Positions 1 to 43,345 of a DNA stretch of 64,000 nucleotides are shown one piece after another. Source of the DNA: Candidatus Liptonbacteria bacterium (GTDB taxonomy: Bacteria; Patescibacteriota; Minisyncoccia; UBA6257; 2-01-FULL-56-20); contig JAHFLL010000001.1 in NCBI GenBank assembly GCA_023244895.1, positions 489,802 through 553,801 on the forward strand, written 5' to 3'. The notes under the pieces are model-generated. The model did not search any database and was not told where the DNA came from. It was given only the letters and a program-made list of their open reading frames with translations. The position numbers were made by a program, and so were the translations under genes. The first letter of the stretch is position 1. The number at the start of each line of letters is the position of its first letter.

Positions 1-1036
1 AGTGTCGGTGTGCGGGATCGGGAAGTGATAAAGACTGGCCAACTCTTCGCTTGATAGAATCATGGCCTGACCCGAATCAAACTTGCGGAAAATAAAGGGG
101 TAGACAATCTTTTGGAAATTCTTGACTTTAACGAACTTGAATTCGTTGCGCCTGGGACTGGAGAATTGTTGAAATCCAGAGATTATTCCATCTAGAATAT
201 CGTTCGCCTGAAACTGAGTCGCGGCAGAAGCGAGCAAACGAACGTTTACATGGAAAAGCGGCTTAGAAATCTTTGCCTCTAAGGCTTTAACCGCGTCCTC
301 GTCTACCACCTTCTCCTTAATTTCTCCCTTGTCTTTGGTTTCGGTGCTTATTGCCTCTTTTATGTCGTCCCAATCAATATCAAAAGCATTTAAAGCCTTG
401 CGCGCGGACTCTCCCCTTTTTATGCGGTCTATTATTTTTTGGACCGATTTGTTGAGATCTTTCTTGGCAGGACTTACGGCGATTTGCATGGCCGCGCCCT
501 CTCCGAACTCATTCACCTTGGCAAAAGCTCCCAAAATAGGGGCAAAGGTGTCCGACTCCAACTCCTGGTATGTGCGAATGGGTAGATAGGCATTCTCTCT
601 TTGCTTTACGTAAGCGGTGGAGGTGGCGCCATGAGGGTTAAAGATATTGTAGTCTTCATTAGTCTGAACGACGCTCGCGCCTGGCCAAGCAGATTGGATC
701 TGTTTGCTCGTCACCTCCACCGCCTTCTTGGGCACGGATACGTAAAAATGTATTTCTTCTCCGATATGATGCACGGCTATCTCAAAAAGAAAGGGTTCGC
801 GAGCGGAAGCCAGGTTGCTAATCAATTGCTCAAACTTATTTATCTCAAATTTGAAATAGTCCTTCTCGGGCTGATTTTCTTCCTTCTTCAGTTTCGGAAC
901 CTTAACCAAGAGAAGGGCTTGATTTAGAGAACGTATAATTCCCTGACGGCGCAGCCTGCCGTAAAGAAAATATCCGCCCACGCCCAAGAGGGCGCCCAGA
1001 ATCAATATGAAGATAACCGAAAGAAATCCAAGCATC
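1..1036 (-). CDS. Hypothetical membrane-anchored protein, partial; the C-terminus runs off the window start
   Basis: A continuous minus-strand reading frame runs from an ATG at 1034-1036 to position 1 with no stop. It is absent from the ORF track because no stop falls in the window. The N-terminal hydrophobic helix reads MLGFLSVIFILILGALLGVGGYFLY, and more than 340 aa remain open after it. The plus-strand ORFs 329..589 and 601..927 are antisense to it. Confidence 0.5.
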
Positions 1037-1126
1037 GGGTAACTTAATTATACAGCAACCCGCGGTAAGTAGTAAGTAGATGGCGAAAACTATAAAGAAC
1101 GATGTGATAGACTTTCGCCTACCGAT

Positions 1127-2902
1127 TTACGCAACTTCAGCCTGATAACAGGCTTCACAATATACTATCTCTCCGCGGTCAGGGGCATAGCTGGTTTCAA
1201 ATTTATTTTGACAAGGCTCGGCTCCATGAAAATGAATGTCCGTGTTTTGATAAGTCCCATTCTGCGACCTATTCCCAGCACACCCACAGGTCCTTTTCCA
1301 TAATTTTAAAGGGTTGAGGCGAGAGAAGCGCCTTTTATGGCGACAGTCAGAACACTTGTTTGGCAGGGGTAAATCAAACCGACGCAAGAAGGCAATTTCC
1401 GCGGGGACGAAGCGATAGGCTCGAGCGCAGGACGCGCAGGCGACCACCTCTTTTAATATATCGTCTCCTACTTCATCAATGGTTGCGGGCAGCTTCTCGC
1501 CTCTAATAGTTGCGGTGTGTTCAGAAGGAGCGCCGTCACACCACCTCCATCCCGTCTCCAATGCCCGTTCCTTAGTCAGCGGGAAATACACCTGCGCGTC
1601 CGTTTCGTTGTACCCATAAAGGGAAAAGTCATACGGCATGAACTCGCCATACTTCCAAACCCTGCCCTGCGCATCAACATAAGGATTACGTTCCATGTCC
1701 GCAATAATTTGAGTTCTCAGAGAGCGAAACTCTTCGGGTGTATATTGCTTATTTAAAATGCAATATTTTTTCTTGCGCAGACCAGAACAACCGAGAAGGT
1801 CTGCTACGTCTATACACCAAACACAATATTCAGTGTTTAGCGTGTTGCCGAGAGCGCACACATAAGAAAACTTAGCATTGTGCGTACCAGCACCTACATT
1901 CATGCACTCATAAATAAGCTCTACATTGTCACCCCACATAGTATAGTCATAAGCGTCTTTGGTATGCGCGTCCTTAATAAATTGACAGAAACGAACATTC
2001 TCCAGTCCGCGCGCCTGAAAAGAATCCTTGGCGTTTTTTGATTCATATATATAGTCTCCGGACACGTTCACGTTTTGGAAGCCATGCATAAACTTGTGCG
2101 GCACTGAACGCCAGACCTCCTCCGCTCGCGCCTGGAGCTGCAAGATACCCTCTTGCGTCCTCATACTCCGGCGCAGCGATTCTAATTCTCGGACATACTC
2201 TTCTTTAGAATGAGGCTTGTTCCAGATGTAATAACTCTTATTGCGCAGATTTGCGCAACCGAAACAATCCGTACAACCCCAAAGATTTTTAGAAAAAAAG
2301 ACATTCACGCAGTCGCTGGAATCTTCCGAAAAGAAAAGTCTTGATGACTTACGACAATTCACATCCTCATAACACAGATCCGATTCTCCTACTATCAGGA
2401 GGTCCATGGAGTCTTTTATATTAGACAATCTTCCGCCGTAAAGCACATCTTCGCAATAATCCGCATCAAAAATAAGATAGCAATTCTTAGACTCGCCCGA
2501 CTCGTTCACATATTCGCTATTAATCAGGGTGGGATGATTAGTCCCTAGTGCCACTAGGGGTGTTTCGCGGAGTAAGCCTTCTAACTGCTCAAGAAATGGT
2601 TTATGGGGATCATACTCCCGCCCATAATCTAATGGACTCCACCTGTCCGACCACCAACAAGGCGGACAATAGACCACGCATTGCTTATCGGGAGAATATG
2701 TGGAAAGAGTAATTTTTCTACAAAGTGCGCACTCCCGCTTATAGAGGTGGCGTTCGTTCCGAAACATGAGCCGCCGCTGGAGCCGACAATTGGGACAAAA
2801 CGTAGGTGGCGGCACCTTTATCCTCTCGTAGAAATTGAAATCCTCCGGCTCTATCGTGAAGTCGGATTTACAATTCTGACAGCTTTTTGTTTCTGAATTC
2901 AT
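1127..2902 (-). CDS. Cysteine-rich dual zinc-ribbon paralog, family copy A1
   Basis: The track ORF is 1127..2923 from a GTG. An in-frame ATG at 2900-2902 yields MNSETKSCQNCKSDF, which matches the 7-aa lead-in seen in the other five paralogs. The N-terminal ribbon is C-x2-C-x22-C-x2-C. A repeated C-x2-C-x-DC-x-GC-x2-LRNK-x-Y motif follows. The C-terminus reads CASCARAYRF...CSDCRHKRR...ETSYAPDRGEIVYCEACYQAEVA. Confidence 0.85.
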   Translation of the reverse strand: MNSETKSCQNCKSDFTIEPEDFNFYERIKVPPPTFCPNCRLQRRLMFRNERHLYKRECALCRKITLSTYSPDKQCVVYCPPCWWSDRWSPLDYGREYDPHKPFLEQLEGLLRETPLVALGTNHPTLINSEYVNESGESKNCYLIFDADYCEDVLYGGRLSNIKDSMDLLIVGESDLCYEDVNCRKSSRLFFSEDSSDCVNVFFSKNLWGCTDCFGCANLRNKSYYIWNKPHSKEEYVRELESLRRSMRTQEGILQLQARAEEVWRSVPHKFMHGFQNVNVSGDYIYESKNAKDSFQARGLENVRFCQFIKDAHTKDAYDYTMWGDNVELIYECMNVGAGTHNAKFSYVCALGNTLNTEYCVWCIDVADLLGCSGLRKKKYCILNKQYTPEEFRSLRTQIIADMERNPYVDAQGRVWKYGEFMPYDFSLYGYNETDAQVYFPLTKERALETGWRWCDGAPSEHTATIRGEKLPATIDEVGDDILKEVVACASCARAYRFVPAEIAFLRRFDLPLPNKCSDCRHKRRFSRLNPLKLWKRTCGCAGNRSQNGTYQNTDIHFHGAEPCQNKFETSYAPDRGEIVYCEACYQAEVA

Positions 2903-2944
2903 ATTCTGCATACTACATGCCACATTCTACCTACTGCTTTTTCC

Positions 2945-4705
2945 TTATACCACCTCCGCATTGTAGCACTGCTCGCAGTAGACTATTTCTGGCCGGTCGG
3001 GGGCATACGGGGTTCTGAATTCTATCTGGCATTTTTCAGAACCATGCACGTGAACCACCTGATTCTTATATACGCTATTTAAACTGCCCACACCCGAACA
3101 CTGACATTTTCTTGGCCACAGCCCAATCGGAGTGCGGAATTTATCTCTCTCGGAGTGTCGACACTTCGGACAAAGACGCGGGATAGGTAAACCAAATCTT
3201 TTATAGAATTCCAATTCTTTTTCCAAAATGCGATAGACTCTGGCACACCCTTCACAAGATATTATCTCCTTCACTATTGCCGAGGTTGCGTCCTCTATCG
3301 AGTCCGGCAAAGCGGAAGAAGATGTGGTCGGCTCGTATTCCCGCTCTTCAATTTCTCGCCAACCAAACCCCTGGGACAGAGATTGTTCTTCGGTAAGGGG
3401 CATGTATTCAACCGCGCAAGACTCGTTATAAGCCAAGGGGGATGTCTCGGGCGGTAAAAACTCCCCGTATCTGTATGTCTTTCCCAGGGCATCTTTATAA
3501 GGAAGACTGTTCATGCTCGCGATAATTTTATCTCTTAACTTGTAATACTCTTGCTCGCTATATTGCTTATTAAAAATACAGAACTGCTTCTTCCTTAAGC
3601 TCACGCAACCGAAAAGATTGTTGGAAGAGTGACAGCCTATGCAATACTCCAAATTACTGGAGGAGGGCCAACAATCAAAGCAAAATTTAAGATTACTCAC
3701 ATTCTCACCGCAAGAAATACTTTCATAAATCAACTCGGCATTTATCCCCCAATTAGTGTAATCCATACAGTCTTTAACGCGGTCCGAAGATATTTGGGAA
3801 TATTTTACATTTTCCGCGCTGTCTATAATCAGATAGCTTTCATTTACATTCTTGCAGTTATACAAATACTCCCCCTCGGATCTTTCGTTTCTTTGAACGT
3901 GAGCGTACTTATTGGGATATTTCAGCCAAAAATCAAGAACTGTTTTTCTTATTTTCTGAAAAGCGGCATAGGAGCTGGTGTTAAATTCTTTAATTTTTTT
4001 AGCATACGACTCCTTATCGTAAGGCTGGTTAAAAATATGGTATTTTTTATGTCTTAGGCCAACACAGCCGAAGCAATCATTGCAATCTGAACAATCTTTC
4101 ATAAACCAGCAATTGCTTAGATTATAGCTATCCACCGCGAAACGGGCTTGAAAACAGTTGCCCGTATTGTAATTCTCATAACACAACTCGTTGCTCTGGA
4201 CGTCAGAAAACTCCATGCATTCCTTGAGATATCTACCCATATTACCGTACATGCAATTTTCGGAATCCCCGAAGTCAAAACACAGATAGCAGTTCTTGGC
4301 GCGGGAAGCCTGGTCGCAGTAATCGCTGTTTTCCAAAACCTGAACCGAACGGGATGCCCAGGGCACATCCCTGGAGAGGGTTTTAAATTGTTCAAAAAAA
4401 GTTTTCGAGAAATCATATTCCCGCCCATAGTCCATGGGATCCCAGGCATCCGACCACCAATAATCCCGTTCGTATATTTTTATATTCGAACTGTCCGGAA
4501 AAGAAGAAAATATTGTCTCCCCTTTTATTGCTTCTTTCTTGCGAAAAAGGTTTTTCTCGTTCCAAAAAACTAAGCGTCTTCGAAGCCGACAACTCGGACA
4601 CCAGGTCGGGGGCGGAACCTTCACGCGTTCATAAAATTGAAAGTCCTCCGGCTCGATAACGAATTCCGATTTGCAATTTTGGCAGTTTCTTTCCTCGGCG
4701 ATCAT
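2945..4705 (-). CDS. Cysteine-rich dual zinc-ribbon paralog, family copy A2
   Basis: A 586-aa ORF. It carries the same N-terminal motif, NCQNCKSEFVIEPEDFQFYERVKVPPPTWCPSCRLRRR, and the same C-terminal motif, ...YAPDRPEIVYCEQCYNAEVV. Its start overlaps the stop of A3 (4702..4705). Confidence 0.85.
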   Translation of the reverse strand: MIAEERNCQNCKSEFVIEPEDFQFYERVKVPPPTWCPSCRLRRRLVFWNEKNLFRKKEAIKGETIFSSFPDSSNIKIYERDYWWSDAWDPMDYGREYDFSKTFFEQFKTLSRDVPWASRSVQVLENSDYCDQASRAKNCYLCFDFGDSENCMYGNMGRYLKECMEFSDVQSNELCYENYNTGNCFQARFAVDSYNLSNCWFMKDCSDCNDCFGCVGLRHKKYHIFNQPYDKESYAKKIKEFNTSSYAAFQKIRKTVLDFWLKYPNKYAHVQRNERSEGEYLYNCKNVNESYLIIDSAENVKYSQISSDRVKDCMDYTNWGINAELIYESISCGENVSNLKFCFDCWPSSSNLEYCIGCHSSNNLFGCVSLRKKQFCIFNKQYSEQEYYKLRDKIIASMNSLPYKDALGKTYRYGEFLPPETSPLAYNESCAVEYMPLTEEQSLSQGFGWREIEEREYEPTTSSSALPDSIEDATSAIVKEIISCEGCARVYRILEKELEFYKRFGLPIPRLCPKCRHSERDKFRTPIGLWPRKCQCSGVGSLNSVYKNQVVHVHGSEKCQIEFRTPYAPDRPEIVYCEQCYNAEVV

Positions 4706-6459
4706 ACTACTTCGGAATTATAACAGCTCTCACAGTAAACTATTTCCGGTCGATCGGGGGCATAGGAAGTTTCAAACTGATTAGGACATCCGCCCTGGTG
4801 GCTGTGGTTAGGCTTATCGCACATGCACCCTCGGGTCCAAAGTCTGAGCGGATTCCTTTCCGCCAATCTCTCATAGTGCCTGCAATTAGGGCAAAGCCTG
4901 GGCAGAGATAGGTTCATGCGCTTATAAAACTGTAGTTCGGCGGGGATAAGTTTGAAAGCAGTCACACAGCTTGCTTCACAGTTGGCGGTATGATGGTTCT
5001 CTTGGGCATGAAGACACCCTATCACCTCCTCTAGGATGGAGTCAGGGGTGTCTTTGATATGGTCCGGCAGGTCCTGGGGTTGTTTGGTCACGGTGTATTG
5101 CTTGGTATCTGGGTCTCTCCACTTGTATCCCTGAACTAGAGCCTGCTCTTTGGTTAAGGGGAAGTACTCCTGGGCGATGGTTTCGTTGTAGGAGAAGGGA
5201 GAGAGTTCCGGGGGGAAGAACTCCCCGTATTTATATACTCTGCCTAGTTTATCTATATAGGGCATAGTATTCATATGCTCTATGATCTGGGGGACCAGAG
5301 CTTCATACTCCTCCTTGGTGTATTGCTTGTTCAAAATACAGTACTGCTTGTTGCGCAGGGCGACGCAGGCAAAGATGTTCTGACAACCGTGAGAGGCATA
5401 ACTATACTGCACGTTATGCCCGCCCCAAACGAATATATCAAAGAAGAATTTGGTTCCATTTAATCCAGTGTCAACTGATTCATATATGAGCTCGCTTGTT
5501 TCCCCTATGCCATAGCCGTCGTAAGAATCACTCAGGCGCACTCCCCCATTGATACAGAACTTACAGTCGCGAATGCCACCCCAGAAGTCGAAGCATGCTT
5601 TACAGTTGCTGGCCTCTCCCACGTTGTCGCCGGTAGTATTTTCTACCTTATACGTATTGGCATACTTCCTTATCGCCTTAAGCTTGAGCTTCTCAAATTC
5701 CTCCTTTACTCTTAAAACATTTCTATAGCTGCCCAGGTCCAATTCCAGCAATTTCCTACCGTATTCTTCCTTGGAATAGGGCTGGTTGAAGATATGATAG
5801 GATTTACCACGCAGATTAGTACAACCAAAACAATCATTGCACCCCTTGCATTGATATAAAAAGGCGGAGTTGGTGCAATTTTCTGAATTCTGTATATAGA
5901 AAGAGTGGGCTATCTTTTCTGATGAAGAGCCCTCATATACTAACTCTGAGTCAGTAACATTAAGTGAGTCCTCCGAGTCCTTCACGTTGCCGCATTTGGA
6001 AACATAGTTGGAATCTTCTATGCCCCAACATGCATGAGAAAGGTAAGAATTTTTCGCCTCGCCGGTGTGATTGCAATAGTCGCTATTAGTAGCCCGCGAC
6101 AGGAATAATGCCGGCATCGGAACCTTGTTTAGCAGCTCGCGATATTGTCCAAAGAAGGATTTTTCAAAATCATACTCGACTCCATAAGAAAGCGGGTCCC
6201 AGGCATCCGACCACCACATATCCCTATCATAGACGTTTATGCCGCTCTCCGGAGAGAAACAGGTTATGACATCCTTATCGTTCAGAGATTTACGACGATA
6301 CAGAGACCTCTCGTTGCGCCAGCTCATTCTCCTCACGCAACGGCAGTCAGGACAAAATGTCGGCGGGGGCATCTTTATACGTTCGTAGAATACAAAATCT
6401 TCCGGTTCTATCGTAAAATCCTTTTTACAATTCTGGCAATTTCTAATTTCCGGTCCCAT
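4702..6459 (-). CDS. Cysteine-rich dual zinc-ribbon paralog, family copy A3
   Basis: A 585-aa ORF with the same architecture. A GGGAGG Shine-Dalgarno lies upstream of its ATG. It contains a roughly 365-bp tract nearly identical to paralog B1. Confidence 0.85.
   Translation of the reverse strand: MGPEIRNCQNCKKDFTIEPEDFVFYERIKMPPPTFCPDCRCVRRMSWRNERSLYRRKSLNDKDVITCFSPESGINVYDRDMWWSDAWDPLSYGVEYDFEKSFFGQYRELLNKVPMPALFLSRATNSDYCNHTGEAKNSYLSHACWGIEDSNYVSKCGNVKDSEDSLNVTDSELVYEGSSSEKIAHSFYIQNSENCTNSAFLYQCKGCNDCFGCTNLRGKSYHIFNQPYSKEEYGRKLLELDLGSYRNVLRVKEEFEKLKLKAIRKYANTYKVENTTGDNVGEASNCKACFDFWGGIRDCKFCINGGVRLSDSYDGYGIGETSELIYESVDTGLNGTKFFFDIFVWGGHNVQYSYASHGCQNIFACVALRNKQYCILNKQYTKEEYEALVPQIIEHMNTMPYIDKLGRVYKYGEFFPPELSPFSYNETIAQEYFPLTKEQALVQGYKWRDPDTKQYTVTKQPQDLPDHIKDTPDSILEEVIGCLHAQENHHTANCEASCVTAFKLIPAELQFYKRMNLSLPRLCPNCRHYERLAERNPLRLWTRGCMCDKPNHSHQGGCPNQFETSYAPDRPEIVYCESCYNSEVV
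5014..5378. repeat. Near-identical DNA tract shared with 38387..38750 (paralog A3 versus B1)
   Basis: By eye the two stretches are identical apart from a handful of SNPs. Flanking paralog DNA is alignable only at the protein level. Both copies encode ACVALRNKQYCILNKQYTKEEYEALVPQIIEHMNTMPYIDKLGRVYKYGEFFPPELSPF(S/A)YNETIAQEYFPLTKEQALVQGYKWRDPDTKQYTVTKQPQDLPDHIKDTPDSILEEVIGC. Confidence 0.8.
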
Positions 6460-6508
6460 TTATTTTTTACCTCCCGTTTTCTATATTCTATCTTCCAACT
6501 TCTAGCTT

Positions 6509-6913
6509 CTATTCTACCATCCCCCTTTTCTTTAATTCTTCGTATAAATTACCGGCTAAAGCATCATGAAAAACGTCCAGAATATACGGGTTGGATTTGG
6601 CGGCCTCACTTGTCGCTTTTACTATGCCTTCTCGAAATGCCATGCCAAGAAGATTCTCTACCTCCAACTTCGTCTCCGGCGGAGCGGACTGAGCGTATTT
6701 CGGCAAGACCGAATCTTCCGACTTAGTAGGTTCTGCTGACCGGGCTACAGGAGCTACGCCCGTATAGGACTGGATAGACTGCTTGACCAGTTCGTGCCCG
6801 GAAACACCTTTCATCTCCGGATTTTCCTGATGACGCTTCAGCTCCGCGGCTACGCCGTGCAAATCTTGCTCTTGGACAGGTACTTTGATTTCTGGGGTTA
6901 GTTGATCGGGCAT
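6509..6913 (-). CDS. Hypothetical protein, 134 aa, at the head of the A paralog array
   Basis: An ORF on the same strand 50 nt upstream of A3. It has no recognisable motif. Confidence 0.45.
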   Translation of the reverse strand: MPDQLTPEIKVPVQEQDLHGVAAELKRHQENPEMKGVSGHELVKQSIQSYTGVAPVARSAEPTKSEDSVLPKYAQSAPPETKLEVENLLGMAFREGIVKATSEAAKSNPYILDVFHDALAGNLYEELKKRGMVE

Positions 6914-6972
6914 GTTGATTAGTAGTTAGAATTTAGAAGCTAGAATATAGACGAGACATCCTAGCGCGATGT

Positions 6973-6986
6973 TTTTATTGTATAAT
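6973..6986 (+). promoter_or_regulatory. Extended -10 element (TGTATAAT) 7 nt before the ATG of the downstream gene; a leaderless transcript is possible
   Basis: The TGnTATAAT sequence at 6979-6986 sits directly upstream of the ATG at 6994. There is no Shine-Dalgarno sequence. Confidence 0.3.
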
Positions 6987-6993
6987 TTAAACT

Positions 6994-8487
6994 ATGCAAA
7001 AACGCAATGTTTTATGGGGACTGTTTCTGGTCCTGATTATAGCAACCTTCCTCAGAACCTACCAACTGGATAAATTCCCACCCGGACTCTACCCGGACGA
7101 GGCCATGAACGGCAACAACGCCCTAGAGGCCATTAAAACCGGCGATTACAAAGTATATTATCCTGAAAATAATGGCCGGGAAGGTCTTTTCATAAATATA
7201 CAAGCACAGTTTTTGCGCCTGATTGGACTGAATGAACCCTGGGTTTTGCGCCTAACAAGCGCCCTAGTAGGGATACTCACCGTGTTGGGGATTTACCTTT
7301 TTGCCAAGGAACTGTTCTCGCGCAAAGTCGGGCTATTGTCCGCTTTTCTTTTGGCCACAAGTTTCTGGCACATAAACTTTTCCCGCATCGGCTTCCGAGC
7401 CATCTCCGCTTGTATGTTCGCCGTTTGGGGATTCTATTTATTGTGGTACGCTCTTCGCAAATCGAACGAACAAAAGGGCGGCTTGTGGCAAGCAATTTTA
7501 GGCGGAATAATTTTCGGGTTGGGTTTCCATACCTACATTGCCTACCGCGTTACACCTCTCCTGCTACTAATACCGCTTATTTATTTCCGGAAGAATAACG
7601 GCTTCTGGAAAATACTACTAGCGTTTCTGGTCGGCGCTTTCATAGCCGGCTTACCAATTGGTCTTTATTATCTTCAAAACCCAGGCGACTTCTTTGGGCG
7701 CACCTCCCAAATCTCTGTTTTCAGTTCAGACTCTACCCTCAAAGACCTTTCTCTCAACATAGGCAAGACTCTTTTAATGTTCTTCTACGACGGAGACTAT
7801 AACTGGCGGCACAATTACGCCGGTCGCGCGCAACTCTTCTGGCCGGTAGCCCTCATGTTTCTCGGTGGCATAATTTTAGGGCTAGGCGCCATCTTTAAGA
7901 GATATCTGGGTTCAAGGAGCCTCCACGATGAAGATAATTCCGAACTGGGAGCCCGGAAAATGCGCGCTTCTTTCTGGTTAATATTCTTGTGGTTCGGCCT
8001 GGGGCTTCTGCCGGTCATTATCTCGAACGAAGGCCTGCCCCACGCCTTGCGGGCCCTGCTTCTTATTCCCCCTGCCATAGTCCTCGCTGGAGTAGCCGGA
8101 ATATGGTTTTACGAGAAAGCCAAGGAGCGTCTACACCCTAAAATACTGGGAGGGCTGACCGTCCTATTTCTAATCCTTTTGTTTTTGGAAGCATATCAAA
8201 CCTATTTTCTACTCTGGGGACCCAATCAAAATACGCAAGGAGCCTTCGCGGCAAACTACGTGAATATCGGCGAGCAAATCAACCGGACCTCACGCCTGCA
8301 CGACAAATACGTAATAGTAGAAGGAGGCGGCACGGATGTGCGCGGACTTCCTATGCCAACGCAGACCACCATGTTTATAACCGACACCTTCCTGCCTCAA
8401 GACCAAAGGGACAAAAAAATCCACTACGTCCTCCCTGGACAAATTGAGCAAATCCCACCCGGTGCCCTGCGCTTCTATTTAAGATAG
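6994..8487 (+). CDS. GT39/GT83-type membrane glycosyltransferase (ArnT/PMT-like, 4-amino-4-deoxy-L-arabinose transferase family)
   Basis: A 497-aa polytopic protein. Its N-terminal region reads FLRTYQLDKFPPGLYPDEAMNGNNALEA...LFAKELF, which is typical of ArnT/PMT-family glycosyltransferases. Many TM helices follow. Confidence 0.7.
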   Translation: MQKRNVLWGLFLVLIIATFLRTYQLDKFPPGLYPDEAMNGNNALEAIKTGDYKVYYPENNGREGLFINIQAQFLRLIGLNEPWVLRLTSALVGILTVLGIYLFAKELFSRKVGLLSAFLLATSFWHINFSRIGFRAISACMFAVWGFYLLWYALRKSNEQKGGLWQAILGGIIFGLGFHTYIAYRVTPLLLLIPLIYFRKNNGFWKILLAFLVGAFIAGLPIGLYYLQNPGDFFGRTSQISVFSSDSTLKDLSLNIGKTLLMFFYDGDYNWRHNYAGRAQLFWPVALMFLGGIILGLGAIFKRYLGSRSLHDEDNSELGARKMRASFWLIFLWFGLGLLPVIISNEGLPHALRALLLIPPAIVLAGVAGIWFYEKAKERLHPKILGGLTVLFLILLFLEAYQTYFLLWGPNQNTQGAFAANYVNIGEQINRTSRLHDKYVIVEGGGTDVRGLPMPTQTTMFITDTFLPQDQRDKKIHYVLPGQIEQIPPGALRFYLR

Positions 8488-9560
8488 CTTACCTTCAGCT
8501 TCTTCTCCTCTCTAAATCTATCTAAAGCCAACTGGATAAGACGGTCTATCAGCTCACCGTAAGGCATACCGGAAGCCTCCCAGAGCTTGGGGTACATACT
8601 GATATTGGTAAAACCGGGCAGGGTGTTTATCTCGTTAACCAGCACTTCGCCGTTCTCTTTCAGGAAGCAGTCAACTCTGCCCAAGCCTTCGCAATTTAAC
8701 GCTTTGAAGGTTCTGATTGCTAGACCCTGCACTTTCTTTACAACATCTTCCGGCAAAATGGCGGGGATTTTCAAATCCGCTCCGTTCTCGTCCAGATATT
8801 TCGCCTCATAAGAGTAAAACTCATGTCTCGCCACAACTTCTCCCGGCACGGAAGCGATGGGGTTCTCATTGCCCAGTACGGAACACTCTATCTCGCGGCC
8901 GGGTATGAATTCTTCCAGGACTATTTTCCGATCATATTGAAAAGCATCTTTTAGCGCCGTCTCGTAACCAGGCTCATCTTTTATCTTATGCACCCCCACC
9001 GAAGAACCCATATTGGCCGGTTTCATAAAGAATGGCGAACCTATTTTTTCAACCACCTCTCCATATCTCATCTTATCTGAGCCGGGAGCTAGGGTTATAA
9101 ATTTTCCGATAGGTATGCCGGCATCACGCAAAATATGCTTCATCACGTCCTTATCCATGCCAACTGCCGAACCTAACACGCTTGGACCAACGAAAGGGAT
9201 ATCCGCCAACTTCAAAAGACCTTGGACCGTGCCATCTTCGCCAAACGGTCCATGTAAGATCGCAAAGGCCACATCTACTTTAGGGAATATATTTTCCGAA
9301 TCCCCAACCCCTCCAAATCTAAATGCAAGCGCGTCTGATTCTTTTTCTATATCCGCCAGCGAGATGGTCGGCTTATCCGCACGAAGTAGGCTCTCTGTTT
9401 TCACCTTATACCACTCTCCTGACTTAGCTATGCCTATCGCCTGCACTTCGTATTTTTCTGGATCCAAGGCGCGTACAATATTACGAGCAGACTGGATGGA
9501 AACCTCATGCTCCGCGGAGCGCCCACCAAAAATAACCGCTACTTTCAGTTTTTGAATCAT
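8475..9560 (-). CDS. ddl: D-alanine--D-alanine ligase
   Basis: The N-terminus KLKVAVIFGGRSAEHEVSIQSA and the ATP-grasp core (EVLVNEINTLPGFT) match Ddl. Its 3' end overlaps the convergent glycosyltransferase gene by 13 nt. Confidence 0.9.
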   Translation of the reverse strand: MIQKLKVAVIFGGRSAEHEVSIQSARNIVRALDPEKYEVQAIGIAKSGEWYKVKTESLLRADKPTISLADIEKESDALAFRFGGVGDSENIFPKVDVAFAILHGPFGEDGTVQGLLKLADIPFVGPSVLGSAVGMDKDVMKHILRDAGIPIGKFITLAPGSDKMRYGEVVEKIGSPFFMKPANMGSSVGVHKIKDEPGYETALKDAFQYDRKIVLEEFIPGREIECSVLGNENPIASVPGEVVARHEFYSYEAKYLDENGADLKIPAILPEDVVKKVQGLAIRTFKALNCEGLGRVDCFLKENGEVLVNEINTLPGFTNISMYPKLWEASGMPYGELIDRLIQLALDRFREEKKLKVSYLK

Positions 9561-9584
9561 AGAGATACTTTAACTAGCGTAGGG

Positions 9585-9625
9585 CTAAAAGACAAATCCC
9601 CTACGCCAGCTGGCGCAGGGGATTT
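9585..9625 (-). terminator. Rho-independent terminator-like hairpin downstream of rplU
   Basis: A 15-bp stem, aaatcccctacgcca/tggcgcaggggattt, with a 2-nt loop and one mismatch. On the minus strand it is followed by GTCTTTT. Confidence 0.45.
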
Positions 9626-9649
9626 GCTTCAAGCTGTATGTTCTAAAAT

Positions 9650-9961
9650 TTACACGCTTACCACCGTCACTTCCGTAAGCTCTTGGCGATGACCCTTCTT
9701 CCTGCGATAACGAGTCTTGGAGTGATACTTAAAAATTATCTTCTTTTTATCCCGCATTTGGCGAGCTACTGTGGTCACAACCTTGGCACCTGCGACATAG
9801 GGATCCCCGACCTCTACCTTATCCCCATCCGCTACCAGTAACACCTTATCAAAAACCAAGTCCGCCCCGGCAACACCTGCCAGTTTTTCCACTTTTATCT
9901 TATCCCCCGCGGAAACCTTGTATTGCTTCCCGCCGGTTTCTATTACAGCAAATTTAGACAT
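9650..9961 (-). CDS. rplU: 50S ribosomal protein L21
   Basis: The N-terminus MSKFAVIETGGKQYKVSAGDKIKVEKL is typical of L21. No rpmA (L27) gene follows it. Confidence 0.9.
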   Translation of the reverse strand: MSKFAVIETGGKQYKVSAGDKIKVEKLAGVAGADLVFDKVLLVADGDKVEVGDPYVAGAKVVTTVARQMRDKKKIIFKYHSKTRYRRKKGHRQELTEVTVVSV

Positions 9962-10043
9962 TGTATTTTATCGATCCGAACTGTCCCGAATGCCCCAAAT
10001 CACTTCGGATAATTCGGATGTATTCGTAGATTGGGATTACTTT

Positions 10044-10403
10044 TTAATTGACCCCTATTATAGCCGCAAAACCTATAAAAAGCAAGGCTCCTATAAAAAC
10101 ATTAACCCCGGTAACAATGCGGGCCAACATGGTGTCGCGATTCGCCAATTCTAGGGCTAATACTAGATTTAAGAAGGTTAAAATTACTCCAAAACCGCCT
10201 GCCCAGGCCAAATCACCGAAAGAACCATACTGATTTATGCCGTCCAAGTTGTTGAAGTGCACAACGAGAGTTGGTCCGGTTTCATACGAATAGAACACTA
10301 GCCACAAGTAGCCCGCTAAGGACAAAATCGGCCCCAAGAGAGAAATCAGCGTGATTAAACGATGCCTTTTTACTTTATCTAATTGCCGTCCGATAAAATT
10401 CAT
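10044..10403 (-). CDS. Small hypothetical membrane protein
   Basis: There are three predicted TM helices. The likely start is the internal Met (MNFIGRQLDK...) 1 nt after the galT-like stop. The longer track ORF would overlap galT. Confidence 0.45.
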   Translation of the reverse strand: MNFIGRQLDKVKRHRLITLISLLGPILSLAGYLWLVFYSYETGPTLVVHFNNLDGINQYGSFGDLAWAGGFGVILTFLNLVLALELANRDTMLARIVTGVNVFIGALLFIGFAAIIGVN

Positions 10404-10404
10404 A

Positions 10405-11400: not shown

Positions 11401-11446
11401 ATACCATACAGAATATATTATTTAGAAGTTAGAATCTAGTTCTGTG

Positions 11447-11518: not shown

Positions 11519-11537
11519 CATTGCCTGGATAATATAA

Positions 11538-11572: not shown

Positions 11573-11594
11573 TGACAGTAATCGCCAGCACGGC

Positions 11595-15601: not shown

Positions 15602-15604
15602 GTT

Positions 15605-38116: not shown

Positions 38117-39835
38117 TCAAGCCACTTCCGCATTATAACACTGCTCGCAGTAAACCATCTCTGGCCGGTCGGGCGCGTAACTGGTTTCAAACTCATTGGA
38201 GCAACCCGGCTTCATACACTTGCGATGCCAGAGCTTATAGGGATTTTTAAGCTTGAGGCGTTCGTAGTGCCTACAATTAGGACATAATCTAGGAATAGGT
38301 AATCCTATCTTCTTGTAAAACCCCAGCTCTTGGGGTATCAGCTTGAAAGCCGACGTGCATTGATGATTGCATCTTGCCCCATGCCCACACCCTATCACCT
38401 CCTCTAGAATAGAGTCGGGGGTGTCTTTGATGTGGTCCGGCAGGTCCTGGGGTTGTTTGGTCACTGTGTATTGCTTGGTATCTGGGTCTCTCCACTTGTA
38501 TCCCTGAACTAGAGCCTGCTCTTTGGTTAAGGGGAAGTACTCCTGGGCGATGGTTTCATTGTAGGCGAAGGGAGAGAGTTCCGGGGGGAAGAACTCCCCG
38601 TATTTATATACTCTGCCTAGTTTATCTATATAGGGCATAGTATTCATATGCTCTATGATCTGGGGGACCAGAGCTTCATACTCCTCCTTGGTGTATTGCT
38701 TGTTCAAAATACAGTACTGCTTGTTGCGCAGGGCGACGCAGGCAAAAACGTTTGAAGAGGCGTTGCAAAAGTCGGTAAATTCAACATTGGCCAGGTTGCC
38801 AATAGAGTTGGTGGAAAATTTTATGCCAGTGCTTTCTCTTCCTCCGGTCGCATATTCGTAGGATAAATCAGAATAAATGAGTCCGCTTATATCCATACTA
38901 TCTTTTAGATAGTATACGCGCATGGCGTTCTTGACGTTTTCAAGCTCCCAGCCCTCAAAACAGTTATGGCAATTTTTGGCGTTAGAAATAGCATCTCCAT
39001 CGGAATTAGCGCACTTTATGACGTCCGCCCAACGATGTAGACAGTTTTCCATCATCACCCTAAATTCAGTTTTAAATTTATCTAGATTAGAATGGCTTCC
39101 AAAATCGAATTCTTCCGACACTTTTTTACGATATTCTTCCTTGGTATATTGCTTATTGCGTATCACATACCTCTTATTCCTTAGGTTGTGAGACATTACG
39201 CAGTCCTGGCAATTCACGCAGTCAAACAGAAACCAGGAATCCACACAGTCAGTAGCGCGAAAAATAAAATGGCAGTTATTACATCTACCCGAATATGCGT
39301 CCCCGTAACACATATTGAGGCTCTCTGCATTTAAACAATCATAAGCATGAACAGAATTATCTACTGCCCGAGAATAATAAACATCTTCACAGTTAACGAC
39401 CGAGTACCCTAAGTAAACATTCTTAGATTCTCCGGTCATGTTGGAATAGCTGACGTTCTCGGAGTTATGGCGTTGCCACAGAGCCATGTGCGGTACCGCT
39501 CTGCGCAATTCCACAAACTGCTCAAAAAATGTCTTGGAAAAATCATACTCCCGACCATACTCTATCGCTTCCCACCCATCCGACCACCAGCAATCATTGC
39601 AATACACGACCAACTCCTTGTCTGGGGAACAGAAGGTAATAGTGCTCTTCCCACAAAGCGCGCATGCCCCCTTATACAGAGAGCGCTCATTGCGAAAGCA
39701 GATCCTTCTCTGTAGTCGGCAATCCGGACACCAGGTTGGAGGCGGAACCTTAATACGCTCATAGAAACCAAAATCATCCGGCTCTATTACAAATGCGCTG
39801 TGACAACTTTGGCATGTCTTGGTTTCCGGTTCCAT
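38117..39835 (-). CDS. Cysteine-rich dual zinc-ribbon paralog, family copy B1
   Basis: A 572-aa ORF reading MEPETKTCQSCHSAFVIEPDDFGFYERIKVPPPTWCPDCRLQRR...YAPDRPEMVYCEQCYNAEVA. It contains the near-identical tract shared with A3. Confidence 0.85.
   Translation of the reverse strand: MEPETKTCQSCHSAFVIEPDDFGFYERIKVPPPTWCPDCRLQRRICFRNERSLYKGACALCGKSTITFCSPDKELVVYCNDCWWSDGWEAIEYGREYDFSKTFFEQFVELRRAVPHMALWQRHNSENVSYSNMTGESKNVYLGYSVVNCEDVYYSRAVDNSVHAYDCLNAESLNMCYGDAYSGRCNNCHFIFRATDCVDSWFLFDCVNCQDCVMSHNLRNKRYVIRNKQYTKEEYRKKVSEEFDFGSHSNLDKFKTEFRVMMENCLHRWADVIKCANSDGDAISNAKNCHNCFEGWELENVKNAMRVYYLKDSMDISGLIYSDLSYEYATGGRESTGIKFSTNSIGNLANVEFTDFCNASSNVFACVALRNKQYCILNKQYTKEEYEALVPQIIEHMNTMPYIDKLGRVYKYGEFFPPELSPFAYNETIAQEYFPLTKEQALVQGYKWRDPDTKQYTVTKQPQDLPDHIKDTPDSILEEVIGCGHGARCNHQCTSAFKLIPQELGFYKKIGLPIPRLCPNCRHYERLKLKNPYKLWHRKCMKPGCSNEFETSYAPDRPEMVYCEQCYNAEVA
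38387..38750. repeat. Near-identical DNA tract shared with 5014..5378 (paralog B1 versus A3)
   Basis: See 5014..5378. Confidence 0.8.
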
Positions 39836-39873: not shown

Positions 39874-41598
39874 TCACGCTACTTCCGCATTGTAGCATTG
39901 CTCGCAGTAGACGACCTCTGTCCCGTCGGGACGGTAGCTGGACCTAAACATATTGGGGCACCTGCCCTCGGGATGGTTGGTATGGCTCGCGGTATTTTGA
40001 TACACCTTATAGTCACATCTGCATTGCTGAGGGGCGGAAAGGCGATTCGGACCGCGGGCGGTCATGCGTCGGTCGTGACGACAATCGGGACACATCCTGG
40101 GAATTGGAATATTCAAACGCTTATAGAATTGCAACTCTGGCGGAATAATACGATAGTTTTTATCGCATTTTACGCAAGAAAATATCTCCCTACTCACATC
40201 CGCCACGTTAAGGTCTCCTATGGCGTCCGGAACGTTATCCCATTTCAAAGTTTCTTTGCCATAGGTACCGCGGGGATATTCTTCCCAGCCGAATCCCAGC
40301 GCCTCCGCCCTCTCTTTCGTAAGCGGAAACTGTTCTTGAGCAACAGTTTCGTTATATCCGAAGGGACCGAGTGAAGATGGGAAAAATTCTCCATATTCTC
40401 CGCTCACCTTCATGTCCCCCACTATCTTATCTCGCAAAGATTCATATTCATCTTTGGAATATTGCTTATTCAAAATGCAATAATCCTTTTTGCGCAAACC
40501 GGCGGAACCCAGGCAGTGGTTGGAATTAAAACAATTAAGGGCATACTCCATAAAGGTAGAACTCCAGGCCTGCGCGCAGGACACACAGTTAGACACGTCT
40601 ATGCCGGTATTAATGGAATTATAGATTGTGCTTGCGTTTCTGCCCGCGGTGCTCACGTCCACGCAATCCTTAGCGTTGCGCCAAACATGCTCTCCGTAAG
40701 CGCAATCTTCCGCTTCATAAGAATGGAAACACTCTCGGCAGTTTTTCGCGTCGGATATGTAGTTCCCGGATGAGCCCGGCGCGTTTACAATCTCCGCGTA
40801 TTTTCTGGGCTGGGTTTTAATAAATTCTAAAAACTTGGCGCGCATAGCCTCTACCCCGCTTGCGGTATCAAGCCGTGCCTCCGTTATAAACCCTTCATAT
40901 TCTTCTTTGCTTAAGGGCTTATTGAAGACATAGTATTGGCGATTACGCAGATTGACGCATCCAATACAGTCACTGCAACCCCTACAGTCGTACAGAAAAT
41001 AGGAGTTTCTGCTGTCATAACAAACTTTACTATAGACAAGCTGATAACAGTTGTAGCAATCGTCACTTTCATAAGAAAGTTCGGTCTGGTGCGAGAAAGA
41101 AAGGTCCAGCGAGTCCCGACATTGCTGTACCCAATAGGAATGAATACAACCTTCATTGTTGGAGGACTCTACCAGCATATAGCAATCCTTATTATCCGCG
41201 GAAATATTCACGTACTCCGAGTTCACGCTACGCACGTAAATCAGCGCCACCTTGGGCACTTTTTTATAAATCTCATTAACCTGCTCTAGAAATGGCCGGC
41301 TTGGGTCATAATCCTGACCGTATTCTGTCGCGTCCCAGTCATCTTTAAACCAGCACTCATAGCACCAAACCGGATATGGTTTATTGGGACTATACATGGA
41401 AACCACCTCCCGCTTGCACTTATCGCAGGCGCGCTTATAGAAGACACGCTCGTTACGAAAAGCTAGTCTGCGCTGGGCGCGACACAAGGGACACATTTTC
41501 GGCAAAGATACGCCGATTTTTTCGTAAAACGTAAAATCATCCGGCTCTATCGTAAAGTCCTTTTTGCAGCTCTGGCAGGTTTTAGCTTCCGGTCCCAT
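39874..41598 (-). CDS. Cysteine-rich dual zinc-ribbon paralog, family copy B2
   Basis: A 574-aa ORF reading MGPEAKTCQSCKKDFTIEPDDFTFYEKIGVSLPKMCPLCRAQRR...YRPDGTEVVYCEQCYNAEVA. Confidence 0.85.
   Translation of the reverse strand: MGPEAKTCQSCKKDFTIEPDDFTFYEKIGVSLPKMCPLCRAQRRLAFRNERVFYKRACDKCKREVVSMYSPNKPYPVWCYECWFKDDWDATEYGQDYDPSRPFLEQVNEIYKKVPKVALIYVRSVNSEYVNISADNKDCYMLVESSNNEGCIHSYWVQQCRDSLDLSFSHQTELSYESDDCYNCYQLVYSKVCYDSRNSYFLYDCRGCSDCIGCVNLRNRQYYVFNKPLSKEEYEGFITEARLDTASGVEAMRAKFLEFIKTQPRKYAEIVNAPGSSGNYISDAKNCRECFHSYEAEDCAYGEHVWRNAKDCVDVSTAGRNASTIYNSINTGIDVSNCVSCAQAWSSTFMEYALNCFNSNHCLGSAGLRKKDYCILNKQYSKDEYESLRDKIVGDMKVSGEYGEFFPSSLGPFGYNETVAQEQFPLTKERAEALGFGWEEYPRGTYGKETLKWDNVPDAIGDLNVADVSREIFSCVKCDKNYRIIPPELQFYKRLNIPIPRMCPDCRHDRRMTARGPNRLSAPQQCRCDYKVYQNTASHTNHPEGRCPNMFRSSYRPDGTEVVYCEQCYNAEVA
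41526..41583. repeat. 58-nt identical tract shared with about 43271..43328 (N-terminal coding ends of B2 and B3)
   Basis: aaaacgtaaaatcatccggctctatcgtaaagtcctttttgcagctctggcaggtttt is identical in both. It encodes KTCQSCKKDFTIEPDDFTFY. Confidence 0.7.
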
Positions 41599-41641: not shown

Positions 41642-43345
41642 TTACGCCACTTCTTGATTATAACAACTCTCGCAATACACTATTTCCGGTCGGCCGGGGG
41701 CATAGCTGGTTTCAAACTCATTGGGGCAGTCCGACTTCATGCATTTGCGGTGCCAGAGCCTGCGGGGATTGCGCATTTTAAAACGCTCTGTTCTGCGACA
41801 GGGATAACAATATTCCGGAACCGGGATACCCATTTTGCGATAGATCATAAGTTCCGTAGGGTGTAAACGGAAAGCACCCACGCAAAGCGGGTTCCTTGTT
41901 TTTGCTTCTTCATCTTCTTGTGTTCGACAACCGATAGTTTGGCTTAGGATATCATCCGAAGCCTCAGCTACGGTGGACGGCAATTGGTCTGGAGTCATAG
42001 TGACTTTATGGTTGGTAGCCGGCTTGTCGTACCAACTATAACCCTTTTGAATTGCCTCTTCTCTAGTCAACGGAAAGTAGTCCTGCGCCATAGATTCGTT
42101 ATAGGCGAACGGGGAGACATCCGGAGGATAGTATTCGCCCCACTCCCCGGTTTTTCTCATATGCTCTACGATCTTCTTTTTTAAATCCAAATACTCCTCC
42201 TTGGAATATTGTTTATTCAAAATGCAATACTGTTTTTGTTTCAATCCAAAACAGCCGAAACAATTATTAGCACCAAAACACATGTCGCAATAACAGGAAT
42301 CAGTTATGGTGCTAAAGCAACTGCGAGCGACGATGGTGCGATGCGGGGTATCCACCCCTTGCGTCTCGTAGGATAGTTCGGCATTTATTATTTCCGTGCA
42401 ATCCCTACAGTCCTCAGTGTTTCGCCAAGCATCCTGCATATAGGCCACATCCTTATTGTCGCGACAGTTAAAACAATAATTCGCTCTTTGAGTGTTCTCC
42501 AGGTAGTCTCCGGAAGATTCCTGAGCCTGGGTACCGTGATAGTTTTTTACCGGCTTAGTTAATCTAAAGCCAGCGAATTTTTTAAGTTGCTCCCGGATAG
42601 ACAATCTTGTCCGGGTAAACTCTTTCTTTCTTTGCTCGTATTCCTCTTTAGAAAGCTGTTCGTTAAACCAACAATATTGCTTATTTCTTAATCCCCAACA
42701 GCCGAGACAATCGACGCAACCTCGACAGTCATCCGAAAAATAGATGTTTACACAGTCGGCGCAATTGCTTATCCAGGCGCAATTGGAACATTTTGCCAAG
42801 TTAATGCTCTCGTAGCAGAGTTCGGAGCTCTCTATCATGTAGCAATCAGAACACATAAAGCACTTGCGCTGGTTCCAACTGCCATACATGCACTTTTCGC
42901 TGGTATCGCTCGTGACCAGCATGTAGCAGTCCTTGTTATCTTGGGACTGATTTGTGTATTCACTATTTACGCTATTCGCATTAACCAAAGCAAGATGAGG
43001 AACTACTCGGCGCAATTCTTCGTATTGCTCAAAAAACGGGCGGTTGAAATCAAAGTTCCGCCCATAAACGGATGCGTCAAAAGCGTCCGATTTCCAATAG
43101 TCCTGCTTGTAGACCGGAAATGAGACGTCTGGTCGGTAAATGGAGATTATGTCCTCCCCGGTAGCATCGCACTTGCGCTTATAAAAGTTGTACTCGTTTC
43201 TATCCGAAAGCCGCCTAATATATCTGCACTCCGGGCAAAGAGTCGGAGGCGGCACATCTATTTTTTGATAAAACGTAAAATCATCCGGCTCTATCGTAAA
43301 GTCCTTTTTGCAGCTCTGGCAGGTTTTTACTTGAGATTCGGTCAT
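41642..43345 (-). CDS. Cysteine-rich dual zinc-ribbon paralog, family copy B3
   Basis: A 567-aa ORF reading MTESQVKTCQSCKKDFTIEPDDFTFYQKIDVPPPTLCPECRYIRR...YAPGRPEIVYCESCYNQEVA. Its start overlaps the NUDIX stop (ATGA). Confidence 0.85.
   Translation of the reverse strand: MTESQVKTCQSCKKDFTIEPDDFTFYQKIDVPPPTLCPECRYIRRLSDRNEYNFYKRKCDATGEDIISIYRPDVSFPVYKQDYWKSDAFDASVYGRNFDFNRPFFEQYEELRRVVPHLALVNANSVNSEYTNQSQDNKDCYMLVTSDTSEKCMYGSWNQRKCFMCSDCYMIESSELCYESINLAKCSNCAWISNCADCVNIYFSDDCRGCVDCLGCWGLRNKQYCWFNEQLSKEEYEQRKKEFTRTRLSIREQLKKFAGFRLTKPVKNYHGTQAQESSGDYLENTQRANYCFNCRDNKDVAYMQDAWRNTEDCRDCTEIINAELSYETQGVDTPHRTIVARSCFSTITDSCYCDMCFGANNCFGCFGLKQKQYCILNKQYSKEEYLDLKKKIVEHMRKTGEWGEYYPPDVSPFAYNESMAQDYFPLTREEAIQKGYSWYDKPATNHKVTMTPDQLPSTVAEASDDILSQTIGCRTQEDEEAKTRNPLCVGAFRLHPTELMIYRKMGIPVPEYCYPCRRTERFKMRNPRRLWHRKCMKSDCPNEFETSYAPGRPEIVYCESCYNQEVA

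What the first reader, a model, noticed from the sequence alone, without database searches (positions are those of the whole stretch)
5014..5378. A recent gene-conversion or recombination tract links paralogs 33 kb apart
About 365 bp of A3 (5014-5378) is nearly identical to B1 (38387-38750), with only a few SNPs by eye. The rest of the two genes is recognisably homologous only at the protein level. A sharp island of near-identity inside otherwise diverged paralogs is the hallmark of recent non-reciprocal recombination. It implies the two arrays actively exchange sequence and so generate mosaics.
Basis: seen in the sequence. Interest (0 to 1): 0.7.

Follow-up and report, generated by a model that had tools for sequence, protein, structure and literature searches.

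The report
Gene-conversion tract between two distant paralogs
A 366-base stretch was copied between two otherwise very different copies of a multi-copy gene in a tiny uncultured (CPR/Patescibacteria) bacterium, a real but ordinary case of gene conversion, and a near-identical strain hints at a second, smaller copying event at the same spot.

Summary
Window 5014-5379 (gene A3) and 38387-38752 (gene B1) match at 357 of 366 bases with no gaps. This includes a 180-bp perfect run, against a maximum of 28 bp in 2000 permutations. Outside the tract the two genes are about 48% identical in DNA and synonymous sites are saturated. Inside it dS is 0.10, so protein-level selection cannot explain the identity. 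Independent assemblies rule out an artefact. An ENA megahit contig spans the A3 tract, and a Logan contig joins B1's unique flank to B1-specific tract alleles. The best explanation is ectopic homologous recombination (gene conversion) that replaced one compact, conserved domain (aa 361-482). The host gene is a roughly 580-aa zinc-ribbon/beta-solenoid protein of unknown function, very common and multi-copy in Patescibacteria. The donor was probably the A3 lineage, but this is only weakly supported. A near-identical strain differs from the window at 3 bases in 16.5 kb, and all three lie in the tract where window-A3 equals B1. That suggests a second short B1-to-A3 patch. "Recent" is relative, and broad array-wide exchange is not shown. 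Among 197 co-resident paralog pairs from other genomes, none had a comparable tract. This is a new example of a known process and is of moderate interest.

The parts
5014..5379 (-). The conversion tract in gene A3 (codons 361-482). The solid part is 5014-5373.
   Evidence: 357/366 identical to 38387-38752. dS is 0.10 inside and saturated outside.
38387..38752 (-). The matching tract in gene B1 (codons 362-483 of B1).
   Evidence: An independent Logan contig, L052, is 100% identical to window 33747-38462. It carries the B1-specific alleles at 38408, 38411, 38417 and 38432, and it ends inside the tract.
5194..5373 (-). The 180-bp perfectly identical core of the tract. Its B1 counterpart is 38567-38746.
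5289..5335 (-). The strain-variable patch. It holds the only 3 differences (5289 G/T, 5305 A/G, 5335 A/G) between the window and the near-identical ENA strain (L001) over 16,459 bp. At all three sites window-A3 equals B1. This is the candidate nested second conversion, B1 to A3.
4702..6459 (-). Gene A3 (585 aa). It is the third gene of array A and its stop/start overlaps A2 (ATGA).
   Evidence: AF2 model: pLDDT 84.7.
38117..39835 (-). Gene B1 (572 aa), the last gene of array B.
   Evidence: identical to P0121.
1127..2923 (-). Paralog A1 (598 aa). It takes no part in the tract.
2945..4705 (-). Paralog A2 (586 aa). It takes no part in the tract.
39874..41598 (-). Paralog B2 (574 aa).
41642..43345 (-). 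Paralog B3 (567 aa).
41516..41583 (-). A second, short near-identity tract in the N-terminal zinc-ribbon codons of B2. It is 68 bp and 97% identical to 43260-43327 in B3, with a 59-bp perfect run.
   Evidence: a 59-bp run against a permutation maximum of 21. One search shows the alignment.
43260..43327 (-). The partner of the B2 mini-tract, in B3.

Best explanation
The tract is the footprint of ectopic homologous recombination (gene conversion, or an equivalent double crossover) between two members of a multi-copy gene family that lie 33 kb apart in direct orientation on the chromosome of a Patescibacteria (CPR) bacterium.

One copy's version of a single compact, conserved domain (aa 361-482) overwrote the other's. 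The diverged N-terminal zinc-ribbon/beta-solenoid part (aa 1-360) and the C-terminal zinc-ribbon part (aa 483 to the end) were left untouched. The exchange was confined to the family's most conserved stretch. It stops upstream where the beta-solenoid becomes unalignable at the DNA level, and downstream at a variable, indel-containing loop. That is the pattern expected if heteroduplex formation needs local homology (inferred).

The main event is old enough for about 10% synonymous divergence to have built up. The donor was probably the A3 lineage (weak inference). A later short patch of at least 47 and at most 180 bp was probably copied back from B1 into A3 in the strain the window comes from. 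This would explain why the only 3 differences from a sister strain lie inside the tract and make A3 identical to B1 there.

Shown: the tract, the homogenised synonymous sites, two physically distinct copies in independent assemblies, and the clustered strain differences.

Inferred: the RecA-type mechanism, the direction, non-reciprocity, and the nested second event.
For: - Identity: 357/366 identical with a 180-bp perfect run, against a permutation maximum of 28.
- Synonymous sites: dS is 0.10 and dN 0.007 in codons 361-482. In both flanks pS is 0.85-0.88, as it is in every other paralog pair.
- Edges: both boundaries are sharp. The 3' boundary falls exactly before an indel loop, which is also the only segment with pLDDT below 50 (residues 490-492).
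- Domain: the tract coincides with the best-modelled domain, pLDDT 96-98.
- Family baseline: different-genome family members reach at most 0.89 DNA identity in any 40-codon window. Co-resident pairs in other genomes reach at most 0.90, and then only at gene termini. The tract is therefore far outside what constraint alone produces. Third-position identity at identical residues in this region is no higher than in the rest of the gene (0.45 against 0.46).
- Not an artefact: L001 matches the window over 16,459 bp including the A3 tract. L052 links B1's flank to B1-specific tract alleles.
- Direction: the L004 A3 ortholog is the best DNA match to the tract among about 120 family genes from other genomes (0.77). 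The tract's dN to L004 (0.13) matches that of A3's N region (0.15), whereas B1's N region gives 0.67.
- Nested patch: the 3 differences from L001 in 16,459 bp all fall within 47 bp of the tract. The chance that all three hit the 366-bp tract is (366/16459)^3, about 1e-5 (my arithmetic). Window-A3 equals B1 at all three sites. The ENA allele is ancestral-like at two sites and derived at one, so the window allele looks like an overwrite rather than point mutations.
Against: - Direction is weakly resolved. Across 234 homologs, the tract's protein identity does not separate A3-like from B1-like subfamilies (67% in both, p = 0.67). The closest tracts outside this genome (P0051 84%, P0015 83%) belong to proteins whose N regions are only 46-51% identical to A3.
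- Non-reciprocity cannot be shown from one genome.
- I could not retrieve the B1 locus of the ENA strain. B1, B2 and B3 are not in the gene-position index. The nested-patch argument therefore rests on P0121 (B1, with Q at the variable codon) being recorded from ENA as well as NCBI.
- Before the event the two tracts were probably only about 70% identical in DNA, judging by cross-genome comparisons. That is low for RecA-mediated exchange.
- No recombination genes were examined.
Confidence: 0.85

Rival explanations
1. Assembly artefact. A chimeric contig or a mis-threaded repeat placed one gene's sequence into the other locus.
For: The window's 180-bp perfect run is longer than typical short-read k-mers. 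Logan (k=31) contigs do break inside the tract. The three differences from L001 lie inside the repeat, where assembler cross-talk is conceivable.
Against: - The two copies differ at 9 sites, so they were assembled as separate sequences.
- L001, an independent megahit assembly, reads through the whole A3 tract into both unique flanks.
- L052 carries B1's unique flank joined to the four B1-specific tract alleles, 100% identical to the window.
- If bubble-popping had merged the alleles at 5289-5335 (shared flanks of 95 and 38 bp), it should have merged 5185/5193 first (flanks of 92 and 95 bp). Those two sites remain distinct (inference).
Confidence: 0.03
2. Sequence constraint rather than exchange. 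The stretch might hold a nucleotide-level functional element, or be under extreme codon and amino-acid constraint that keeps the two copies alike.
For: The region is the most conserved part of the family. Pairs from different genomes reach 0.84-0.89 DNA identity in 40-codon windows here.
Against: - The other four paralogs in the same genome are only 39-71% identical over these codons, with saturated synonymous sites.
- Third-position identity at identical residues in this region is no higher than elsewhere in the gene.
- Rfam finds nothing there.
- No pair from another genome exceeds 0.90.
Confidence: 0.02
3. Recombination with imported DNA. An A3-type fragment from a related strain, taken up from outside, recombined ectopically into B1 (or a B1-type fragment into A3). 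On this reading the donor was not the resident paralog.
For: The 2.5% divergence between the two tracts could be donor-strain divergence rather than mutation after the event. Patescibacteria are generally thought to take up DNA (my background knowledge, not tested here).
Against: This needs an unseen donor, while a suitable donor sits 33 kb away. The sampled strains are nearly identical everywhere else compared: no differences outside the tract in the 16.5 kb (L001), 11.7 kb (L002) and 4.7 kb (L052) stretches. The strain-variable patch makes A3 exactly equal to the resident B1.
Confidence: 0.07
4. Programmed variation. The arrays might act as a cassette system that deliberately generates mosaic proteins by segmental conversion, as in pilE/pilS, vlsE or MgPar, or by a diversity-generating retroelement.
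For: The family is multi-copy: at least 8 copies in this genome and up to 9 per 21 kb elsewhere. There are probably two events at one site, and a second short tract between B2 and B3.
Against: - All six copies are full-length ORFs with their own starts. None is a truncated silent cassette.
- The proteins have zinc ribbons and no signal peptide or membrane segment, read from the sequence, so they are likely cytoplasmic.
- Only 1 of 15 pairs has a long tract, and none of 197 co-resident pairs elsewhere does.
- The mismatch spectrum is mostly transitions in both directions, not changes at adenines only.
- No reverse transcriptase was found among the window ORFs scanned, and there was no PADLOC hit.
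Confidence: 0.03

Closest known systems
Partial gene conversion between dispersed bacterial paralogs. Classic examples are tufA/tufB in Salmonella and concerted evolution of rRNA operons (my background knowledge; rRNA review PMC6002687, listed).
   Same: Homology-dependent copying between direct-orientation copies on one chromosome, tens of kb apart. Synonymous sites are homogenised and the flanking genes are left undisturbed.
   Different: tuf and rrn copies are near-identical along their whole length and are kept so. Here the partners are saturated paralogs (about 40% protein identity in the N region), and only one 122-codon domain was exchanged. The result is a mosaic rather than concerted evolution of whole genes.
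Mosaic evolution in tandem paralog clusters, such as the Staphylococcus aureus tandem lipoprotein (lpl) cluster. There the evolving unit spans the 3' end of one ORF, the spacer and the 5' end of the next (PMC2568036; abstract as listed, not read in full).
   Same: A multi-copy tandem family in which sub-genic segments, not whole ORFs, are the units exchanged. In this family, elevated identity at gene termini between neighbours is also seen.
   Different: The main tract here is internal to the gene and links two different arrays 33 kb apart. The comparison with that paper rests on its abstract only.
Segmental conversion between PE_PGRS duplicated genes in mycobacteria (PMC1762029; abstract as listed).
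   Same: Gene conversion within members of a lineage-specific, expanded gene family of unclear function.
   Different: PE_PGRS genes are GC-rich, repetitive and surface-associated. The present family is non-repetitive at the DNA level, zinc-ribbon-bearing and probably cytoplasmic.

Membership tests
Ectopic gene-conversion tract between paralogs | A sharply bounded island of near-identity inside otherwise diverged homologous genes, beyond chance | tested here: met
   357/366 identical. The 180-bp perfect run compares with a permutation maximum of 28. One search shows the edges.
Ectopic gene-conversion tract between paralogs | Synonymous sites homogenised inside the tract but not outside it | tested here: met
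   dS is 0.10 inside. pS is 0.85-0.88 in both flanks.
Ectopic gene-conversion tract between paralogs | Phylogenetic incongruence: flanks group with orthologs while the tract groups with the co-resident paralog | tested here: met
   A3's N region is 77-82% identical to L004 and P0002. B1's N region is 38% identical to them. B1's tract is 98% identical to A3 and 81% to L004.
Ectopic gene-conversion tract between paralogs | Both copies physically present, each with its own unique flanks (not a collapsed or chimeric assembly) | tested here: met
   L001 spans A3. L052 joins the B1 flank to B1-specific tract alleles. B1's 5' junction was not covered independently.
Ectopic gene-conversion tract between paralogs | Non-reciprocal transfer: the donor is unchanged and the recipient overwritten | not testable with these tools
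   This needs the pre-event state of both copies or a close outgroup carrying both orthologs. The nearest B1-type relative is only 53% identical in the N region.
Programmed cassette-based variation (pilE/pilS, vlsE, MgPar type) | One expressed locus plus truncated or promoterless silent donor cassettes | tested here: not met
   All six copies are intact ORFs of 567-598 aa with start codons.
Programmed cassette-based variation (pilE/pilS, vlsE, MgPar type) | Many alternative mosaic alleles in the population | tested here: inconclusive
   Only two A3 alleles were seen, differing at 3 sites. No read-level data were available, and the JGI scans were empty.
Diversity-generating retroelement (TR/VR pair) | Differences between the two repeats confined to adenines of the template repeat, with a reverse transcriptase nearby | tested here: not met
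   The 9 differences are mostly C/T transitions in both directions. No RT domain was found in the window ORFs scanned. Both repeats lie inside full-length paralogs.
CxxC-x17-CxxC / treble-clef zinc-finger proteins (TIGR04272, PF23477) | A score above the curated cut-off of the family model | tested here: not met
   Only B1 hits, at 19 bits against cut-offs of 27 and 36. The motif resembles that of the family, but the protein is not a curated member.

The most novel reading that the evidence does not exclude
The roughly 580-aa zinc-ribbon/beta-solenoid family has thousands of members in Patescibacteria, is multi-copy in many genomes, and matches no known fold or function. It might use its conserved aa 361-482 domain as an exchangeable module that is repeatedly swapped among paralogs. 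That would make the arrays a standing source of mosaic proteins that vary between closely related strains. The three tract-restricted strain differences would then be a first glimpse of ongoing, selected exchange rather than an isolated accident.
Probability: 0.07. Interest if true: 0.65.

Novelty: new member of a known kind. Interest (0 to 1): 0.35.

Why it matters
Gene conversion between bacterial paralogs is well known, so the process is not new. The case still has value for three reasons.

1. It is clean, sequence-level evidence that homologous recombination acts within the small, streamlined genome of an uncultured CPR bacterium, and between partners that are otherwise saturated.
2. It shows that a highly abundant, uncharacterised, multi-copy CPR protein family can evolve by domain-level mosaicism. 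This matters for building trees or defining orthologs in that family.
3. The only differences between two near-identical strains fall inside the tract. Paralog-templated patches can therefore pass for point-mutation SNP clusters in strain-resolved metagenomics.

Tried and rejected
- **ENA-strain B1 locus.** I tried to fetch it to test the nested-patch idea. Exact-protein look-ups of B1, P0121, B2, B3, P0239, the DnaE ORF and a 206-aa neighbour all returned nothing. Only Logan fragments (L002, L003, L052) came back.
- **JGI metagenome scans.** Two exact-pattern scans for the tract found nothing. The genome-contig scan did not contain the window's own species; the best hit was the 75% ortholog L004.
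- **Direction from protein identity.** This is uninformative, because A3-like and B1-like homologs are equally similar to the tract.
- **Module decoupling.** In the 240 search hits, N-module and C-module distances looked uncorrelated (rho about 0.05). That suggested family-wide module shuffling at codon 360. The effect vanished in the less biased set of 123 genes taken from whole loci (rho 0.36-0.56 for N1 and N3, 0.18-0.21 for N2). I treat it as a selection artefact and make no claim from it.
- **Alternative mechanisms.** DGR, a defence system and an embedded RNA element were each considered and rejected.
- **Literature.** Searches for gene conversion in CPR or for this family returned nothing specific.

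Full report
**What is there**

The window holds six paralogous genes on the minus strand, in two arrays.
- Array A: A1 1127-2923, A2 2945-4705, A3 4702-6459.
- Array B: B1 38117-39835, B2 39874-41598, B3 41642-43345.

The surrounding genes are ordinary core genes. They include the ribosomal-protein operon, SecY, EF-Tu, EF-G, DnaE, Ddl, an aminoacyl-tRNA synthetase and three tRNAs. The named homologs of the six proteins are overwhelmingly from Patescibacteria/CPR, such as Liptonbacteria, Paceibacterota, Staskawiczbacteria and Jorgensenbacteria. All are annotated as hypothetical. The host is therefore a CPR bacterium.

**Checking the observation**

Self-BLASTN gives 5014-5379 against 38387-38752: 366 bp, 97.5% identical, 9 mismatches, no gaps. 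The tract covers codons 361-482 of A3.

In a codon alignment of all six genes, A3/B1 runs at 94-100% through the tract. All other pairs are at 39-71% over the same codons. A3/B1 falls to roughly 33-69% outside it, mostly 40-60%.

The longest perfect run is 180 bp, against a maximum of 28 in 2000 permutations.

Nei-Gojobori counts for the tract give 7 synonymous and 2 non-synonymous differences, so dS is 0.10 and dN 0.007. In both flanks, and in every other pair, the proportion of synonymous differences is 0.78-1.0, which is saturated. Homogenised synonymous sites mean DNA exchange, not protein-level selection.

Both edges are abrupt. At the gene's 5' side, identity jumps from random to perfect at A3 nucleotide 1087 (window 5373). 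At the 3' side it ends with codon 482 (window 5014), directly before an indel-containing loop.

**Ruling out an artefact**

- L001 is a 158-kb megahit contig from a different assembly (ENA ERZ27279977). It matches window 1-16459 with 3 mismatches and reads through the A3 tract into both flanks.
- L052 is a Logan contig from SRR14366791. It is 100% identical to window 33747-38462. It joins B1's unique downstream flank to 76 bp of tract that carry the four B1-specific alleles. It stops 30 nt after the last of them, which is the behaviour expected of a k=31 assembler entering a true repeat.
- The two copies differ at 9 sites, so they are physically distinct.

**Ruling out constraint**

The region is the most conserved part of the family. 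Pairs from different genomes reach 0.84-0.89 DNA identity in 40-codon windows there. None of the 7306 different-genome pairs exceeds 0.89, and none of the other co-resident pairs among the 197 scanned in 45 loci exceeds 0.90. The high co-resident values lie at gene termini. Third-position identity at identical residues is no higher in this region than elsewhere in the gene. Rfam finds nothing there.

**The protein**

No curated family matches above threshold.

An AlphaFold2 model of A3 built on 98 homologs is confident (pLDDT 84.7, pTM 0.86). It shows these parts:
- an N-terminal zinc-ribbon region;
- a compact alpha/beta domain at aa 361-482, which has the highest confidence (96-98);
- a disordered loop at 490-492;
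- C-terminal zinc ribbons.

The tract therefore equals one structural domain, bounded downstream by the variable loop. The function is unknown. The absence of a signal peptide and the presence of zinc ribbons suggest a cytoplasmic protein (read from the sequences).

The family is multi-copy. L001 shows two more copies beyond the window's start, so this genome has at least 8. Other genomes carry up to 9 in 21 kb.

**Direction of the main event**

Protein identity of the tract does not separate A3-like from B1-like homologs.

At the DNA level, the best match to the tract among about 120 family genes from other genomes is L004, the A3 ortholog, at 0.77. The tract's dN to L004 is 0.13, which matches A3's N region at 0.15. 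B1's N region gives 0.67. A3, P0002 and P0005 are mutually 78-80% identical in the tract, much like their 79-85% in the N region.

I therefore lean towards the tract being native to A3 and copied into B1, but only weakly.

**A second event**

The window's A3 protein is P0239 (NCBI, 840,672-bp contig). The ENA contigs carry P0001, which differs by Q391K.

The only 3 differences between the window and L001 in 16,459 bp are at 5289, 5305 and 5335. All lie inside the tract and within 47 bp. The chance that three random differences all land in the 366-bp tract is about 1e-5 (my arithmetic).

At all three sites window-A3 equals B1. Compared with L004 and other relatives, the ENA alleles are ancestral-like at codons 375 and 391 (K/R is the usual residue at that position among the relatives compared) and derived at 385. 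The window allele therefore looks like a block overwrite from B1 rather than three point mutations. None of the other four paralogs in the window has the ENA combination.

B1 (P0121, with Q) is recorded from both NCBI and ENA. I could not retrieve the ENA-strain B1 DNA, so this nested B1-to-A3 patch (at least 47 bp, at most 180 bp) is probable rather than proven. I put it at about 0.6.

**How general is exchange?**

Within the window, one further short tract exists: the N-terminal zinc-ribbon codons of B2 and B3. It is 68 bp at 97%, with a 59-bp perfect run against a permutation maximum of 21.

In other genomes, tandem neighbours often share 80-90% identical N- or C-terminal windows, somewhat more than different-genome pairs do (95th percentile 0.83 against 0.76). 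No long internal tract was seen.

An apparent family-wide decoupling of the N and C modules was not reproduced in an unbiased gene set, and I do not claim it.

**Comparison with what is known, and verdict**

This is a textbook-type partial gene conversion. Known parallels are tufA/tufB and rRNA operons (background knowledge; PMC6002687), sub-genic exchange units in tandem paralog clusters (PMC2568036, abstract) and PE_PGRS conversion (PMC1762029, abstract).

It differs in that the partners are saturated paralogs and only one domain was exchanged.

It fails the defining features of cassette-based programmed variation, because all copies are intact ORFs. It also fails those of DGRs, because of the wrong mismatch spectrum and the absence of an RT among the ORFs scanned.

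"Recent" and "arrays actively exchange" need tempering. The finding is a new member of a known kind, of moderate interest.

Noticed in passing
window 41516-41583 and 43260-43327: A second, short near-identity tract (68 bp, 97%, 59-bp perfect run) joins the N-terminal zinc-ribbon codons of the adjacent genes B2 and B3. It is probably a small conversion between tandem neighbours. In other genomes, tandem neighbours also show 80-90% identical termini.
   Followed up: partly
window 5289, 5305, 5335 (compare L001 11125-11171): The only three differences between the window and a near-identical strain over 16.5 kb lie within 47 bp inside the tract. One of them changes residue 391 (Q in the window, K in the ENA strain). 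Paralog-templated patches like this could be mistaken for SNP clusters.
   Followed up: partly
L001 19144-20886 and 20883-21758 (beyond the window's left end): Two more full-length paralogs of the same family follow a VirD4/TraG-like ATPase gene and pgk. The genome therefore has at least 8 copies in three clusters.
   Followed up: no
[not shown]
   Followed up: partly
window 43985; window 38462: Both Logan contigs that cover the ribosomal-protein side (L002, L003) end at exactly 43985, in the 480-bp spacer upstream of array B, with no repeat visible there. The exact B1, B2 and B3 proteins are also missing from the gene-position index, although their neighbours are present. The B array may be variable or hard to assemble in other samples.
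   Followed up: no
window 44072-44190: An inverted repeat with 25-nt arms (88% complementary, 69 nt apart) lies in the long spacer between the aminoacyl-tRNA synthetase gene and a NUDIX-like ORF. There is no Rfam match.
   Followed up: no
window 2922-3007 vs 38092-38179; 38106-38245 vs 41631-41770: Similarity of 77-79% between the 3' ends of family genes extends 11-25 nt past the stop codon into the downstream spacer. This holds even for B1, which is followed by an unrelated gene. It suggests that the duplicated or exchanged unit includes the spacer, as described for tandem lipoprotein clusters in S. aureus (PMC2568036, abstract).
   Followed up: no
window 41642-43345 (B3, aa 126-223): The beta-solenoid part of B3 matches PHROG 15341 (unknown function) at E = 1.6e-9. 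B1 and B2 match the same family weakly, so a related repeat domain occurs in phage proteins.
   Followed up: no
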